Shown piece by piece: positions 111 to 4,971 of a stretch of DNA of 64,000 bases. The notes under the pieces were generated by a model. That model saw only the letters and a list, made by a program, of their open reading frames with translations. It had not been told where the DNA came from and searched no databases. Both the position numbers and the translations under genes were made by a program. Source of the stretch: a virus. The first letter of the stretch is position 1. The number at the start of each line of letters is the position of its first letter. The stretch lies in the IMG/VR virus record IMGVR_UViG_3300044639_001144. One strand, given 5' to 3'.

Positions 111-941
111 ATGAATCCATTGACTCAATATTTTAGACAACCTTCAATTTATATTAAATTGCCTAGCCAAGGCAATTACTACCCTGCGGGAGCTATCGAA
201 ATGCCACAAAATGGCGAGCTTCCTGTATTGCCCATGACGGCAATAGATGAAATTACATATCGTACACCTGATGCATTATTCAGTGGACAAGCAGTTATTA
301 ATGTTATACAAAGCTGTATTCCCGCTATCAAAGATGCATGGGCAATCCCATCAATTGATATTGATACCATATTAGTAGCTATACGTATTGCCAGCTACGG
401 TCATGAAATGACTTTTGCCACAGTTTGCCCACATTGCCAAAATGATGACGAATATGCTGTTGATTTACGTACTGTACTTGAGCAAATGAAAACCCCTGAT
501 TATTCAGATCCAGTTAAACAAGGCGATATCGAAATTTACTTTAGACCAATGACTTATAAAAATTTGTCTGATAACAATAAAATTCAATTTGACGAACAAC
601 GTATTTTTCAATCGTTGCCTGATGACAAAGCCGTAGATAATGTTCAATTATCAGCTATGTCAGCAGCATTACAGCGCATGACTGAGATGACTGTATCTGC
701 ACTAAGTCAAAGTATTTTAACCATTAAAACTCCTAGCGCCATGGTTACAGAACAAGAATATATTAGCGAATTTATGAAAAATTGTGATAGTGGATTGTTC
801 AATCGTATTCAAACTTATGTAGTCGATCATAAATCTGAAGCAGAGATGAAACCTATTACAATTAAATGTAATAAATGTCAAACTAATTACTTACAATCTA
901 TTACGTTGGATATGTCGAATTTTTTCGAGCGCGCCTCCTAA
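111..941 (+). CDS. T4 gp26-like baseplate hub / tail assembly protein
   Basis: N-terminal IKLPS-G-YY and PMTAIDE motifs, IRIASYG, two CxxC pairs (CPHC, CNKC) and a C-terminal NFF typical of the gp26 family. Confidence 0.75.
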   Translation: MNPLTQYFRQPSIYIKLPSQGNYYPAGAIEMPQNGELPVLPMTAIDEITYRTPDALFSGQAVINVIQSCIPAIKDAWAIPSIDIDTILVAIRIASYGHEMTFATVCPHCQNDDEYAVDLRTVLEQMKTPDYSDPVKQGDIEIYFRPMTYKNLSDNNKIQFDEQRIFQSLPDDKAVDNVQLSAMSAALQRMTEMTVSALSQSILTIKTPSAMVTEQEYISEFMKNCDSGLFNRIQTYVVDHKSEAEMKPITIKCNKCQTNYLQSITLDMSNFFERAS

Positions 942-979
942 TATTAGATCCTGAACGTGTTGCTACTTACATAGACAAC

Positions 980-1156
980 ATGGATAAAGAGATCAATGAT
1001 ATTAGACTTGAGGCGTTACGTATGTCTTGGTACATGAGAGGGGGATTACCTTATGATCAAGCCTTACAACTCAGTGTCGCTGAAAGAAAAATAATCAGTG
1101 ATATCATCAAAGATAATATGGAGACAACTAAGAAAAGTGGTTTGCCTTTCTTTTAA
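980..1156 (+). CDS. T4 gp51-like baseplate hub assembly protein, 58 aa (MDKEINDIRLEALRMSWYMRGG...GLPFF)
   Basis: Translated by hand; below the ORF-track cutoff. It follows the gp26-like gene as in T4-like phages. Its frame is open back to the slippery site at 920-926. Confidence 0.7.
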   Translation: MDKEINDIRLEALRMSWYMRGGLPYDQALQLSVAERKIISDIIKDNMETTKKSGLPFF

Positions 1157-1224
1157 GTTTTTTGTTTTTTCCATGACCCTCCTTAAGGTTCTGAATGATT
1201 ACTTTATATTTCTTTTTGATTTAA

Positions 1225-1725
1225 CAGATTAGCTGCGCTAATCCAAGACTCGCATACTGCTCGTCTTATTGTTTTAAGTAGTTGCTTTTAAATACTATTC
1301 GTCTAGAACTAATGTCATAATTCACCGTAAGCACGGTGAAAAAAATGACCTCTTCGTCTGAGTCCGCAGTCATTTATTATAAAGAGATTGTGCTTTCACA
1401 CTCGGAGGCGGTTGACCTGTACCCCCTACTCTAGCTTCACATATCAACGGAACCCTAGTAACCCCATAATAAATCAAAGTCCTATAAGCATGGGTCGTAT
1501 CTTTTTCACGTTGCCCAAACCATTTGTTGCCTTAAGTTGGCTTTTGCCTTTGACACCCGAGTAGGCTTGCGCCTCTTCTATCCGAATTGGGTTTCTCACC
1601 AATCCTCAACGGGGATCGAGCAGCCTCGATCAAACGCTGTCAGTGTGATGCCTCCCAGAGTTTCACTGGTTCTGACTAATAGTGTCGGGCTTCCCCTAAC
1701 TTAGTCTGTCGATGCCTATCTAAGA
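1225..1725 (-). ncRNA. Putative large structured non-coding RNA (~500 nt), family unassigned
   Basis: No ORF of 60 aa or more. GC is ~48% by hand count over 1381-1680 in an otherwise AT-rich genome. Many hairpins; GNRA loops (GCAA, GAAA) read only on the minus strand. Long-range helix 1372-1380/1466-1474. Confidence 0.7.
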
Positions 1726-1729
1726 TGAT

Positions 1730-2158
1730 TTAAATTTTGTTTTTGATGTGACTACCATGTATACGGCAAACTATTTGTCCGTTATAGTAATCGTCACTTT
1801 CTAATACACGATGCTTAAATTGTTCACGGGCTTCAATATAACTGCATTCCGATTTGGTGTTGCAATAATATAATATTTGCCTAGTGAAATTTTCGATGCC
1901 TAACTGTTCGATGTCTTTATTTAATTCTATGCTGCTGCCGGTGTACTGTTGCCAGTCTGATTCCACTTTACTTTTGATTCTCTTACGTTTTTTGGTGCCG
2001 TTCTTAAGTTTTACTATTTTATATGTTGTTTTACTAAATTTTGATAGTTTTTTTCCGATATATTTTCTGCCGGATATGTTGTTTGTAATGCAATAAACAA
2101 ATCCAGCACAATCTTCCGGTAGTATTTCAACATGAGTGTTTTCAAAAAGCCATGACAT
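1730..2158 (-). CDS. Small GIY-YIG endonuclease (T4 EndoII/Seg-like)
   Basis: GFVYCITN...RKYIGKK motif, Y-x-GSS, conserved E (YIEAREQF) and YYNG. No long DNA-binding tail. Confidence 0.85.
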   Translation of the reverse strand: MSWLFENTHVEILPEDCAGFVYCITNNISGRKYIGKKLSKFSKTTYKIVKLKNGTKKRKRIKSKVESDWQQYTGSSIELNKDIEQLGIENFTRQILYYCNTKSECSYIEAREQFKHRVLESDDYYNGQIVCRIHGSHIKNKI

Positions 2159-2194: not shown

Positions 2195-3958
2195 TTATGC
2201 TACCTCTACATCTGTATTATAACTGGTAAATCCGCCATCCTTGATTACTTTGAGTATATTTTCTACTCTTCCGGCTAACTCGTCTCTATGACTTACTAAC
2301 CAAATTGATTTTTGTCGCTCACGTGACATTTGTTTTAATAATCCCAACGCTGATTCCACACCTTGTGTGTCAAGCCCGTTGTCAATCATTTCATCAATGA
2401 ATAATACATTGATGGGAGTATATAAGGATTCAAACACATCTCTAAATGCCCATGCCATACTTAAAATAAGTCGATTACGCTCGCCTCTTGACAGATTATC
2501 AAAGTCAAGTTCACGTCCTAGCTCTTCGATACTAACCGAAAGATCATTTTGAAATACAACAGTATGTGGTAATCCAATACGATCTAAGTAATGTGTTAGT
2601 CTTGTGTTAAGATATGATAAGTTTTGTTCAATAATCTTCTTGCGTATGAAACTATCCTTACTGGTGAGTAATTTTAATAAAAATTCTTGATGTTCTTGTA
2701 AACGTGTTAAGTCGTTTAACCCATCGTAAGTAACCTCTGCTAATGCTTGTTCAGTCATTTCAGTAATCTGTTCAGCATAAGGATCAATTTCAGTACTTTT
2801 ATTTTCTAATTGAGCTTGCAAGCCAGCAATCGTAGCACGATGCTGTATGGCGTCTTCTTCTTTATCGTAAAACATCTTAGGTGGTTTACCTAAAACTCCC
2901 AACGATTTTTGCATTGACTCTAATTCCGACAACAACTCACTGTATTCTTTATTTGATACTTGTGAAGTTGTTAATTCTTTTTGTTTTGTCTCCAACACCT
3001 GTTTGTGTTTACTATCATGGAACGGTTGTCCACACGAATGGCACTCATGATTATCAAGCGTTTTAATCTCAGCTAACAGCCGATTGATTATTTTTTCTTC
3101 CCTGCTAATATCTAATTTAACTCTACTGATTTGTGTAGTTAGCTCATTGATATCTTTACGTTTTTGATCCCATGCTGTGTGATCTTTGTGTGCTTGTATT
3201 TCTAAATCGATATCAATTTCCTGGAGCGAAGCCAATGCTACTTCAAGTTTTGAAATATCGTCGGTGTTTTTAGTAGTCCAAAGTGTTTGTCTACGTTTTA
3301 GCGATTCAATTTGCTCTAAAATCCTTTTATTAGCATCTTGTACGGCACGTATTCTAAATTCTTCTGCTTGTATAGCATCTTTTGTAGTGCGATTTAGCTC
3401 TTTAATCTTATCAGCACGTTCACTAAGCATAGTAATGCCCAGTAATTGTTCAATGATTGTACGTTGATCATTGGCTTTTAATGATAAAAACGGTTCGGTA
3501 TAAGTGTTAAGTGCCATAATATGTTTAAACATATCGTGACTCATACCTAGCATGTCTTCGATTGCTGTTTGAGTTTCTCTACTATCGCCTTGTGCATTAT
3601 CTTCGGCTTCAGTTTCTTTGTTATTGACATAAAACTTTAGCAAATTAGGCTTACGTCCACGCTCAATACGATATTGTTGATCACTGATGACAAAATCCAG
3701 TGATACAATCATATTCTTGCCGTTAGTTTTGTTAACAAGATTATCTCGCCGTATATTACTAAGTGCTACTCCATACAACGCATATGAAAGTGCATTAATA
3801 ATAGTAGTCTTGCCAGTGCCGTTTCTACTGCCATCACCGCCTAAGTCTAAGTTTTCGCCTAATACTAATGTTAAATCACGTCGATCAAAGTTAATAGCCT
3901 GGGTAGCATTGCCTACACTCATGAAATTCTTTACAGTTAAATTCTTAATCTGGATCAT
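2195..3958 (-). CDS. Recombination endonuclease ATPase subunit (T4 gp46 / SbcC / Rad50-like)
   Basis: KNFMS, Walker A NGTGKTT, coiled coil with CHSC zinc hook, signature LSRGE, Walker B LFIDE and SH motif. Confidence 0.95.
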   Translation of the reverse strand: MIQIKNLTVKNFMSVGNATQAINFDRRDLTLVLGENLDLGGDGSRNGTGKTTIINALSYALYGVALSNIRRDNLVNKTNGKNMIVSLDFVISDQQYRIERGRKPNLLKFYVNNKETEAEDNAQGDSRETQTAIEDMLGMSHDMFKHIMALNTYTEPFLSLKANDQRTIIEQLLGITMLSERADKIKELNRTTKDAIQAEEFRIRAVQDANKRILEQIESLKRRQTLWTTKNTDDISKLEVALASLQEIDIDLEIQAHKDHTAWDQKRKDINELTTQISRVKLDISREEKIINRLLAEIKTLDNHECHSCGQPFHDSKHKQVLETKQKELTTSQVSNKEYSELLSELESMQKSLGVLGKPPKMFYDKEEDAIQHRATIAGLQAQLENKSTEIDPYAEQITEMTEQALAEVTYDGLNDLTRLQEHQEFLLKLLTSKDSFIRKKIIEQNLSYLNTRLTHYLDRIGLPHTVVFQNDLSVSIEELGRELDFDNLSRGERNRLILSMAWAFRDVFESLYTPINVLFIDEMIDNGLDTQGVESALGLLKQMSRERQKSIWLVSHRDELAGRVENILKVIKDGGFTSYNTDVEVA

Positions 3959-4971
3959 AGGCTCTGGTAAATTTTTAATAACAACTTGGGATCATAGAAT
4001 TCTGATTCAATATTTGTAATTTGATCAGTAACAATTTGATCCACAGACTCAAACTTTATTTCACCTGGGGCTAAATCAGTATCAACTGAGTTAGTCTTAA
4101 CAGGGATCAACGCCATTTCGCGTAAATTGTAGTCTTTAATGAATGTTTCTTTAATAAATGTAGCTTCTTCATAACTAATGCCAATGTCTAGCTCAACACG
4201 CACAAGCATGTTAGGTTGGAAGATGTTTGCGCCATTATCAATTGCTTCACTTAGTTTTAGTACACGATATAATGGTTGTCCTGGCCAAGAAAAATACTTG
4301 TCTTCCATTCCCCATTCTTTAACCATCATGCCACGAGCACTATCTCCAGCATCAGCAAAGTTATGCGGAAAACAGTTACCTATGTAAGTAACATTTTCTT
4401 TCTTTTGTCTCAAGTGAAAGTGACCACTGTACACGCTTTCGAAGCCGTTAAAATGATCTACTTTGATTTCGCCATGATCAGGCATTTCTACCATAGCATT
4501 CATTTTAAAATGTGGTAGTTCAAAGTGACCAAACATATATTGTCCACTTAGTTTATGAATTTTTTTATGATCATCGCCTACTAGCCAAGGGGCAATAGTA
4601 ACATTGCCTTCAGTAAACCAATCGTTTACGATAATAATATTAGGAATGTGTTTAGCCCATTCGGCTCCGTGAATATCACGTTTATCACGATAATATAAAT
4701 CATGGTTGCCGGGAATGAAATAAAACTTATCAAATGCTTTTGATAATTTTTCCAATGCTCGTACACTAAATTGTAGTGTTTGTAAGTTGATTGAAGCACG
4801 ATGATTATGCCAATCGCCAAGAAAAAGACCGGTTTCGCAACCTTCTTCTTTAGCTTTGGCAATAAACCAATCAATAAATGCTTCACAATCACGATTATGT
4901 ACTAAACTATTGGATTTTAATCCCCAATGTATGTCAGTACATACCGCTGCCTTCTTGAATAAGTTAGTCAT
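3955..4971 (-). CDS. Recombination endonuclease nuclease subunit (T4 gp47 / SbcD / Mre11-like)
   Basis: Metallophosphoesterase motifs TDIHWG, LGDW, GNHD, GHF and SGHFH; adjacent to the gp46-like gene. Confidence 0.95.
   Translation of the reverse strand: MTNLFKKAAVCTDIHWGLKSNSLVHNRDCEAFIDWFIAKAKEEGCETGLFLGDWHNHRASINLQTLQFSVRALEKLSKAFDKFYFIPGNHDLYYRDKRDIHGAEWAKHIPNIIIVNDWFTEGNVTIAPWLVGDDHKKIHKLSGQYMFGHFELPHFKMNAMVEMPDHGEIKVDHFNGFESVYSGHFHLRQKKENVTYIGNCFPHNFADAGDSARGMMVKEWGMEDKYFSWPGQPLYRVLKLSEAIDNGANIFQPNMLVRVELDIGISYEEATFIKETFIKDYNLREMALIPVKTNSVDTDLAPGEIKFESVDQIVTDQITNIESEFYDPKLLLKIYQSL

What the first reader, a model, noticed from the sequence alone, without database searches (positions are those of the whole stretch)
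1157..2158. Large ornate non-coding RNA directly downstream of a minimal GIY-YIG nuclease
Seen in sequence: the 570 bp between two convergent genes is by far the largest ORF-free gap in the window and is GC-enriched (~48% over 1381-1680 by hand count). It is packed with hairpins: GATTAGC/GCTAATC (1227-1243), AAGAC-GA-GCA..TGC-GA-GTCTT with tandem GA mismatches (1245-1267), GTCAT..TTCACCGT/ACGGTGAA..ATGAC (1314-1349), GTGT-GAAA-GCAC (~1390-1401), GGGGGT/GCCTCC (1404-1426), AGGC-GCAA-GCCT (1563-1574), ATTGG/CCAAT (1586-1603) and GATCGAG/CTCGATC (1614-1631). A long-range 9-bp helix (1372-1380 with 1466-1474) closes a multi-stem domain. The loop GGTCAACC could form a pseudoknot with either CCGTTGA copy (1444-1450, 1606-1612). 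GNRA loops read only on the minus strand, so the RNA would be co-transcribed immediately after the 142-aa GIY-YIG gene, which lacks the DNA-recognition tail of homing endonucleases. Established: phages carry giant ornate RNAs (GOLLD, ROOL), and compact nucleases can pair with adjacent RNAs (HEARO/omega RNA with IscB). Inference: this is a large phage ncRNA of possibly new class, perhaps forming an RNP with the GIY-YIG protein. An origin-associated RNA is an alternative.
Basis: partly seen in the sequence, partly recalled or inferred. Interest (0 to 1): 0.85.

Follow-up and report, generated by a model that had tools for sequence, protein, structure and literature searches.

The report
Twin-box structured RNA of lake phages
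The gene-free gap behind a small nuclease gene of this uncultured T4-like phage holds a real, knotted non-coding RNA of about 500 bases, a new variant of the little-studied Polynucleobacter-1 RNA; it carries the same 7-letter word twice, and nothing here shows that it guides the nuclease.

Summary
Window 1225-1723 (minus strand) encodes a conserved structured RNA. Relatives lie in about 180 of 199 fetched IMG/VR phage loci. On 51 close relatives, 97.4% of cells pair and 38 of 71 pairs change on both sides (0/500 shuffles reach this). 440 G-U against 23 A-C cells fix the RNA on the minus strand.

It is not a wholly new class. A sister type carries Rfam RF01718 (Polynucleobacter-1, Weinberg 2010) as its 5' domain and shares the window's roughly 250-nt 3' domain. 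The window's own 5' domain is different, and Rfam finds nothing in the window. The 2010 paper already noted that the motif lies downstream of this gene family (PSSM2_218, which I show is the GIY-YIG homolog).

The RNP or guide idea is not supported:
- About 13 of 110 RNA loci lack the GIY-YIG gene, and four carry a PD-(D/E)XK nuclease instead.
- Bacterial chromosomal copies exist.
- No GIY-YIG residue tracks the RNA.

The strangest feature is two 7-nt boxes (AGACGAA here) that take 14 forms across phages yet are always identical within one RNA. This is unexplained. Function is unknown; my best guess is a trans-acting RNA with two-fold recognition by one partner. Earlier agents of this scan found the same family on other DNA.

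The parts
1225..1723 (-). Whole RNA gene (the window's type, called A-type here). It runs from the conserved CUUAGAUAGGCA just after the GIY-YIG stop to the terminal hairpin. The ends are inferred from conservation, not mapped.
   Evidence: blastn and nhmmer conservation; alignment A2; pair counts
1487..1723 (-). 5' domain of the A-type, not matched by Rfam. Helices: H1 1614-1631; H2 1610-1613 with 1556-1559; H3 1599-1605 with 1584-1590; lineage-specific hairpin 1563-1574; H4 1539-1543 with 1527-1531 (loop AACUUAA); H5 1514-1521 with 1487-1494, enclosing H6.
   Evidence: no RF01718 or other Rfam hit
1460..1481 (-). Hairpin H7 (rich in G-U pairs). Its loop, 1467-1474, forms pseudoknot PK1.
   Evidence: helices 8 and 9
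1372..1379 (-). 3' strand of PK1 (UAAUAAAU), pairing with 1467-1474.
   Evidence: 6 of 8 pairs change on both sides; 7 of 7 in the sister type
1404..1448 (-). Pseudoknotted core. GUUGA 1444-1448 pairs with UCAAC 1411-1415 (PK2), which lies inside the loop of hairpin H9 (1422-1426 with 1404-1408). The core is nested in H8 (1429-1432 with 1383-1386). It contains the near-invariant GGUACNGGNCAACCGCC.
1353..1359 (-). Box 1 (AGACGAA), preceded by ACUC.
1321..1340 (-). Hairpin H12 (UUCACCGU/ACGGUGAA), between the two boxes.
   Evidence: helix 15; UUUGCCC/GGGCAAA in the sister type
1298..1304 (-). Box 2 (AGACGAA), preceded by UUCU (AUCU in most relatives).
1245..1268 (-). Hairpin H13, with tandem G-A pairs next to a short GC stem.
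   Evidence: 6 of 6 stem pairs change on both sides (helix 16)
1227..1243 (-). Terminal hairpin H14, the probable 3' end or terminator. It has no good U-tract and the scan called no terminator.
1730..2158 (-). 142-aa GIY-YIG protein gene (PF19835, 8e-33): catalytic domain plus a basic beta-hairpin insert. It is the usual upstream neighbour, not a demonstrated partner.

Best explanation
Window 1225-1723 (minus strand) is a stand-alone structured non-coding RNA gene of the 'twin-box' family.

Shown here:
- It folds into a 5' domain of nested hairpins and a conserved 3' domain of about 250 nt.
- The 3' domain is built on two pseudoknots. It is followed by two identical 7-nt boxes flanking a conserved hairpin, a G-A motif hairpin and a terminal hairpin.
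- The 3' domain is homologous to that of phage and bacterial RNAs whose 5' domain is the Rfam Polynucleobacter-1 motif. The window's 5' domain is a different, swapped-in module.

Inferred:
- In this phage the RNA is made at the 3' end of the gp47-gp46-GIY-YIG transcription unit, or from a promoter of its own. It acts in trans as a folded scaffold.
- The two boxes are bound by two copies (or two like sites) of a single sequence-reading partner, whose specificity differs between phage lineages. That would explain why the boxes change but stay equal. I put this mechanistic step at about 0.3.
- The nuclease genes usually found upstream (GIY-YIG, or PD-(D/E)XK in some loci) are neighbours, not subunits. 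They may be free-standing endonuclease genes parked beside a highly conserved RNA gene.
For: Conservation.
- A core of about 250 nt is 80-85% identical in 39 of the first 80 loci. nhmmer finds the RNA in about 183 of 199 loci.
- Median nucleotide identity to the window is 83% for the RNA core, 77% for the GIY-YIG gene and 74% for the gp46 3' end.

Structure.
- Alignment A2 (51 sequences): 97.4% of cells paired against 87.9% in shuffles; 38 of 71 pairs change on both sides against 23.0 +/- 2.1; 0 of 500 shuffles reach any measure; slid controls give 35-49% paired.
- Alignment A3 (38 sister-type sequences, including one Methylococcales bacterial copy): 93.6% against 79.9%; 25 of 36 pairs; both pseudoknots covary.

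Strand: 440 G-U cells against 23 A-C cells. Pairing is 97.4% as read, and would be 85.8% on the other strand.

Not coding: variable columns fall 47/48/40 by position modulo 3.

Family link.
- RF01718 scores 86-118 bits in seven sister-type loci.
- A profile built only from sister-type RNAs hits the window once, at 1495-1228 on the minus strand, E = 8e-11, over its 3' part only.

Independence from the nuclease: phage loci without the GIY-YIG gene; chromosomal copies in Methylococcales MAGs among chemotaxis, kinase, PilY1 and defence genes.

Boxes.
- In 71 distinct sister-type sequences the three variable positions are identical between the boxes in 71 of 71 (MI 0.98-1.09 bit). No other column exceeds 0.5 bit.
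- 14 different 7-mers occur in 151 loci, each twice in its own RNA.
- The fixed flanks differ (ACUC against AUCU), which argues against simple gene conversion.
Against:
- No promoter or terminator was called by the simple scans. The RNA's ends are inferred.
- The partner is hypothetical. I found no complementary sequence in cis, no co-varying RNA column, no co-varying GIY-YIG residue, and no avoidance or clear excess of a phage's own 7-mer in its flanks.
- Local minimum-energy folds often pair box 1 with the AUCU flank of box 2, so the boxes may not be freely exposed.
- The helices were chosen on the same alignments on which they were counted, which inflates the margin over the controls.
Confidence: 0.6

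Rival explanations
1. RNA-protein nuclease system. The RNA binds the adjacent 142-aa GIY-YIG protein, which lacks a DNA-recognition tail. The RNA supplies targeting, with the two variable boxes acting as short guides, for example for the two strands of a palindromic site.
For: - Adjacency in 77 of about 100 informative loci.
- The protein is only a catalytic domain plus a basic hairpin.
- When the GIY-YIG gene is missing, another small nuclease (PD-(D/E)XK) occupies the slot in 4 loci.
- The boxes are variable and duplicated.
Against: - The RNA occurs without any adjacent nuclease in several phage loci and in bacterial chromosomes.
- Other ORFs intervene in 12 loci.
- In L092 the GIY-YIG gene is on the opposite strand.
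- The same protein family is widespread in cultured cyanophages and in phage Melnitz, where no such RNA follows it.
- No protein residue tracks the box letters.
- A phage's own 7-mer is not avoided in its own DNA.
Confidence: 0.07
2. The adjacency reflects homing, not partnership. The GIY-YIG gene (and the PD-(D/E)XK gene) is a free-standing homing-type endonuclease gene lodged next to a very conserved RNA gene, as Seg and Mob genes sit next to conserved genes and tRNA genes in T4. This explains the neighbourhood and is compatible with the best explanation of the RNA itself.
For: - Pfam family SegE_GIY-YIG; the best fold matches are the I-TevI catalytic domain.
- Non-orthologous nuclease replacement at the same slot.
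- In a cyanophage the homolog is followed by a tRNA cluster.
- The RNA core is more conserved than its neighbours.
Against: - The gene is present in most related loci and is 70-90% identical, which looks like a stable resident rather than a sporadic invader.
- It has no separate DNA-binding domain.
- No cleavage site was tested.
Confidence: 0.25
3. A cis-acting element rather than a trans-acting RNA: a 3'-UTR stabiliser or terminator block for the gp46 operon at a convergent gene junction, or a single-stranded DNA structure at a replication origin.
For: - Position at the end of the operon, facing convergent genes.
- Two terminal hairpins.
Against: - About 400 nt with two covarying pseudoknots and long invariant unpaired stretches is far more than a terminator needs.
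- Many conserved G-U pairs.
- The RNA keeps its form in other gene contexts and in bacterial intergenic regions, including between co-oriented genes.
Confidence: 0.08

Closest known systems
Polynucleobacter-1 RNA motif (Rfam RF01718; Weinberg et al. 2010, Genome Biol 11:R31, PMC2864571)
   Same: - Same superfamily of loci. The sister type of this RNA carries RF01718 as its 5' 141 nt (86-118 bits) and shares the window's 3' domain.
- Same freshwater habitat.
- Same position downstream of the PSSM2_218-like gene, noted in the 2010 supplement. That gene is the GIY-YIG homolog (40% identity).
   Different: - The window has no RF01718 match, even at E <= 10. Its 5' domain has a different set of helices.
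- The Rfam model stops before the 3' domain of about 250 nt (pseudoknots, twin boxes), which I found described nowhere. The library holds only the 2010 paper for this name.
- The 2010 authors found no copy in a purified phage. Here the carriers are T4-like phage contigs.
GOLLD and ROOL large ornate RNAs of phages and bacteria
   Same: Large, pseudoknotted RNAs of unknown function found in phage or prophage DNA. From my own knowledge, GOLLD also has a conserved 3' half and lineage-specific 5' halves.
   Different: No Rfam match. The RNA here is smaller (about 400-500 nt). The twin identical boxes have no counterpart that I know of.
HEARO / omega RNA with IscB, and other nuclease guide RNAs
   Same: A structured RNA next to a compact nuclease gene.
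   Different: No Rfam match. The nuclease is of another fold. Adjacency is not obligatory. There is no long variable guide segment and no RNA-protein co-variation.
Lambdoid nut sites (boxB) with N protein, and plasmid iterons with Rep (analogy for the boxes only; from general knowledge)
   Same: Several copies of a short recognition element are identical within one genome and differ between related genomes, because one trans factor reads all copies.
   Different: Here both copies lie 47-63 nt apart inside one folded RNA, and no cognate factor is known.

Membership tests
Polynucleobacter-1 (RF01718) | Match to the RF01718 covariance model at or above its gathering score (37 bits) | tested here: not met
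   No hit in the window at gathering score or at E <= 10 over 1000-2300. Seven sister-type loci score 86-118 bits.
Polynucleobacter-1 (RF01718) | Lies downstream of a gene of the GOS11034 / PSSM2_218 family (2010 supplement) | tested here: met
   (quotation from the supplement). PSSM2_218 is 40% identical to the window's GIY-YIG protein, E = 4e-19.
Extended twin-box RNA (Polynucleobacter-1 plus 3' domain; family defined in this scan) | Homologous 3' domain with the GGUACNGGNCAACCGCC core | tested here: met
   A profile built from sister-type RNAs only hits window 1495-1228 on the minus strand, E = 8e-11. Alignments A1 and A2.
Extended twin-box RNA | Two pseudoknots (hairpin loop to downstream strand; GUUGN to NCAAC in the H9 loop) | tested here: met
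   PK1 covaries in both types. PK2 is invariant in the window's type and covaries in the sister type.
Extended twin-box RNA | Two identical 7-nt boxes [R]GA[U/C][N]A[W] flanking a conserved hairpin | tested here: met
   AGACGAA at 1359-1353 and 1304-1298; family-wide identity.
Nuclease guide RNA (HEARO/omega-RNA-like) | Obligatory association with the nuclease gene | tested here: not met
Nuclease guide RNA (HEARO/omega-RNA-like) | RNA binds the protein and directs cleavage | not testable with these tools
   Needs biochemistry. Co-variation between the boxes and the protein was sought and not found.
Group I intron, GOLLD, ROOL, tmRNA, RNase P RNA | Rfam or ARAGORN match; for an intron, flanking exons | tested here: not met
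   gp46 and the GIY-YIG gene are complete and no interrupted gene flanks the RNA.
GIY-YIG nuclease superfamily (the neighbouring protein) | Pfam GIY-YIG domain match and fold | tested here: met
   PF19835, 8.4e-33. AF2 model with pLDDT 81.7. The best PDB fold matches are the I-TevI catalytic domain, but they are weak (E 0.15, probability 0.93-0.97).

The most novel reading that the evidence does not exclude
The twin boxes are a programmable identity code. A bivalent partner reads both boxes: a dimeric protein, or two copies of a nucleic acid, possibly recruited together with the neighbouring small nuclease. Changing both boxes together retargets the RNA. This would give related co-infecting phages private specificities, for example self/non-self discrimination or short-guide targeting of palindromic or repeated 7-nt sites. 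That would be a new principle of RNA-based specificity in T4-like phages.
Probability: 0.08. Interest if true: 0.9.

Novelty: new variant of a known kind. Interest (0 to 1): 0.6.

Why it matters
A pseudoknotted RNA of about 400-500 nt is conserved more strongly than its neighbouring genes in well over a hundred uncultured freshwater T4-like phage contigs, some of them over 300 kb. Large RNAs of this complexity have usually turned out to be ribozymes or cores of RNPs.

The only published trace is a 141-nt motif from 2010 with no function and no follow-up. This window shows three things:
- the family is modular (alternative 5' domains on one 3' domain);
- it is carried by phages;
- it holds an identity-coupled pair of boxes whose logic is unknown.

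The box pair gives a sharp, testable handle: mutate one box, then both. It is also a warning against reading every structured RNA next to a small nuclease as a guide RNA.

Tried and rejected
- Rfam at gathering and at permissive thresholds, and ARAGORN: nothing in the window.
- GenBank phages by blastn with three queries: no cultured phage has the RNA.
- Group I intron: no Rfam hit, no exons, and the helix order does not fit (reasoned).
- Coding gene or decayed gene: no codon periodicity.
- Rolling-circle or repeat-unit template bounded by the boxes: spacing is 47-63 nt, not multiples of three, and no reverse transcriptase is nearby.
- Partner for the boxes:
  - complement in cis: none
  - any co-varying RNA column: none
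  - GIY-YIG residues: none
  - depletion or excess of a phage's own 7-mer or its complement in 0.8 Mb of flanks: 90 against 69.5, and 62 against 52.9, so no clear signal
- Antiparallel box-box pairing would predict co-variation between the R and W positions, but all combinations occur.
- EndoII (DenA) identity of the protein: no sequence match to any PDB chain, and 2WSH is not among the fold matches.
- The 17-mer scan of viral contigs gave 9 chance matches among 119 loci; these were removed by profile search.
- Of 18 pattern hits in bacterial genomes, only 7 were the real RNA, and 3 of those carry the GIY-YIG gene and look like phage contigs binned into MAGs.
- The 137-aa basic protein next to the bacterial copies has no homolog in the window or in the phage loci.

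Full report
**Setting.** The window is part of an uncultured T4-like phage.
- A gp26-type baseplate hub gene lies at 111-941 (+) and a 58-aa ORF at 980-1156 (+).
- They face a minus-strand unit: gp47-like (3955-4971), gp46-like (2195-3958) and a 142-aa GIY-YIG gene (1730-2158).
- Between them lies the region in question.
- The nearest cultured relative of the GIY-YIG protein is Methylophilales phage Melnitz (47% identity, Kyanoviridae).

**Observation.** The gap, its raised GC (0.43-0.51 against about 0.35) and all the listed hairpins are present. Single-sequence folding is only mildly better than shuffles (z = -2.2 minus strand, -1.1 plus strand). So I turned to relatives.

**Relatives.**
- The GIY-YIG protein has more than 590 relatives in IMG/VR.
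- Downstream of it, on the same strand, 39 of the first 80 loci share a core of about 250 nt at 80-85% identity with window 1314-1561.
- A profile search finds the element in nearly every locus that has enough downstream DNA. After a 17-mer scan of viral contigs it is found in about 183 of 199 loci.
- The RNA core is more conserved than the protein genes beside it: 83% against 77% and 74% nucleotide identity.
- Variable columns show no codon periodicity.

**Structure.** I placed helices by hand and script on MAFFT alignments and had them counted.
- On 51 RNAs of the window's type (A2): 97.4% of 3568 cells pair. 38 of 71 pairs have changes on both sides, in 321 cells (shuffles: 23.0 pairs and 85 cells). 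No shuffle of 500 reaches any measure. Slid controls fall to 35-49% paired.
- On 38 RNAs of the sister type (A3): 93.6% paired and 25 of 36 pairs with changes on both sides.
- Caveat: the helices were chosen on these alignments, so the margins are generous. But the double changes are plain to the eye.
- The GGTCAACC loop pairs with 1444-1448 (PK2), not with the copy at 1606-1612.
- G-U cells outnumber A-C cells 440 to 23. So the RNA is the minus strand.

**Family.**
- Rfam gives nothing in the window.
- A lead from earlier notes of this scan made me scan relatives. Seven loci of the sister type carry Rfam RF01718, Polynucleobacter-1, at 86-118 bits as their first 141 nt.
- The window's type has another 5' domain (H1-H6) in that place.
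- Both types share the 3' domain: H7 with PK1, the PK2/H8/H9 core, H10, box 1, H12, box 2, H13 and H14.
- A profile built only from sister-type RNAs finds the window once, at 1495-1228 (minus), E = 8e-11, over its 3' part only.
- Weinberg et al. (2010) wrote that the motif lies mostly downstream of genes like PSSM2_218 of cyanophage P-SSM2, and that no purified phage had it.
- PSSM2_218 ('NAD synthetase') is 40% identical to the window's GIY-YIG protein. So the gene-RNA arrangement was seen in 2010, unnamed.
- The library holds no later paper on the motif.
- No cultured phage in GenBank has the RNA.

**Relation to the nuclease.** Among 110 verified RNA loci from the 17-mer scan:
- 77 have the GIY-YIG gene directly upstream.
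- 12 have it one or two ORFs away.
- About 13 have none although upstream DNA is available.
- Of those 13, four have a PD-(D/E)XK nuclease (PF24608) in the same slot after gp46. Others follow a redoxin, a phosphorylase-like protein, an Mtd_N protein or a baseplate gene. In L092 the GIY-YIG gene points the other way.

Further points:
- In cultured relatives the protein sits after nrdAB with no such RNA. In one cyanophage it is followed by tRNA genes.
- A scan of species-representative bacterial genomes found seven real copies. Three carry the GIY-YIG gene and look like phage contigs binned into MAGs. One lies on a 1.7-kb Flavobacteriales MAG contig too short to judge.
- The other three lie in Methylococcales MAGs. 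Two of these loci sit on long chromosomal contigs, one among chemotaxis, histidine-kinase and PilY1 genes and one in a TIR / MmeI-type RM / NYN island. All three carry RF01718, and the one read in full (L215) has both boxes intact.
- Only 2 of 151 Methylococcales genomes sampled have the RNA.
- The AF2 model of the protein is a GIY-YIG core with a long basic beta-hairpin. Its best, weak, fold matches are the I-TevI catalytic domain.
- No column of the protein alignment tracks the box letters: best MI is 0.24-0.35 bit of about 1 bit.

**The twin boxes.**
- Box 1 (1359-1353) and box 2 (1304-1298) both read AGACGAA.
- Across the family the word is [R]GA[U/C][N]A[W]. I counted 14 different words in 151 loci, each present twice in its own RNA.
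- In 71 distinct sister-type RNAs the three variable positions agree between the boxes in 71 of 71. No other column carries comparable information.
- The flanks are fixed and different (ACUC against AUCU), and the spacing is 47-63 nt. So plain gene conversion or a repeat-unit template is unlikely.
- I found no complementary partner in cis and no depletion of a phage's own word in its flanks.
- Local energy folding tends to pair box 1 with the AUCU before box 2. AUCU plus RGAU is also a self-complementary octamer. Neither pairing can be tested by covariation.
- The identity rule is the most unusual feature and remains unexplained.

**Reading.**
- Shown: a conserved, pseudoknotted, minus-strand RNA gene; its family link; its independence from the nuclease gene; the box rule.
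- Inferred: it acts in trans as a folded scaffold, and one partner reads both boxes, with specificity that differs between lineages (about 0.3). The upstream nucleases are neighbours, perhaps homing-type genes beside a conserved target (about 0.25 for that account of the adjacency).
- The guide or RNP reading keeps about 0.07, and a purely cis or origin role about 0.08.

**Novelty.** This is a new variant of a known but uncharacterised kind. Earlier agents of this scan reached the same family and the same box rule on other phage DNA (e1-5341615, e1-5368044, e1-5368048). I re-derived the box rule before reading those notes, and tested the Rfam link afterwards.

Noticed in passing
L104:3893-4423 (-), L118:2614-3126 (+), L163:335-853 (-), L130:265-771 (+): A PD-(D/E)XK nuclease (PF24608) of about 170 aa takes the place of the GIY-YIG gene between gp46 and the RNA. 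This is non-orthologous replacement of one small nuclease by another at a fixed slot.
   Followed up: partly
L226:10288-10704 (+), L227:9382-9792 (-), L208:5553-5969 (-): In three Methylococcales MAG loci a basic, Pro/Arg/Lys-rich ORF of about 137 aa with no known family lies divergently next to the RNA (52% identity between loci). It has no homolog in the window or in the phage loci. It is a candidate bacterial partner, or only a neighbour.
   Followed up: partly
L226 (G001:C14:114200-134100): One bacterial copy of the RNA lies in a defence-type island: a NYN-domain protein just downstream on the same strand, a CAP12/Pycsar-type TIR protein, an MmeI-type restriction-modification enzyme and a helicase.
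   Followed up: partly
window 1730-2158 (-); L228:26712-27149 (+): The name 'NAD synthetase' given to this protein family in PHROG 447 and in many GenBank cyanophage records (for example PSSM2_218) looks like a mis-annotation. The proteins are GIY-YIG domains (PF19835).
   Followed up: partly
window 1563-1574 and 1640-1713 (-): Only the window's close lineage (L001-L003, L010, L011) has an extra GNRA-capped hairpin, compensated in L010. The about 60 nt of extra 5' sequence, which repeats the AGGCAUC start of the RNA, is seen in the window and its closest relatives (L001-L003 align over it).
   Followed up: no
L202 (Synechococcus phage SynMITS9220M01) 2983-4479: In this cultured cyanophage the GIY-YIG homolog is followed by a small ORF and a cluster of four tRNA genes. 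This is another case of the nuclease gene sitting next to stable-RNA genes.
   Followed up: no
window 111-1156 (+): A gp26-like hub gene is followed by a 58-aa ORF without an evident start context. Other first-stage notes propose a -1 frameshift that joins them. I did not examine this.
   Followed up: no
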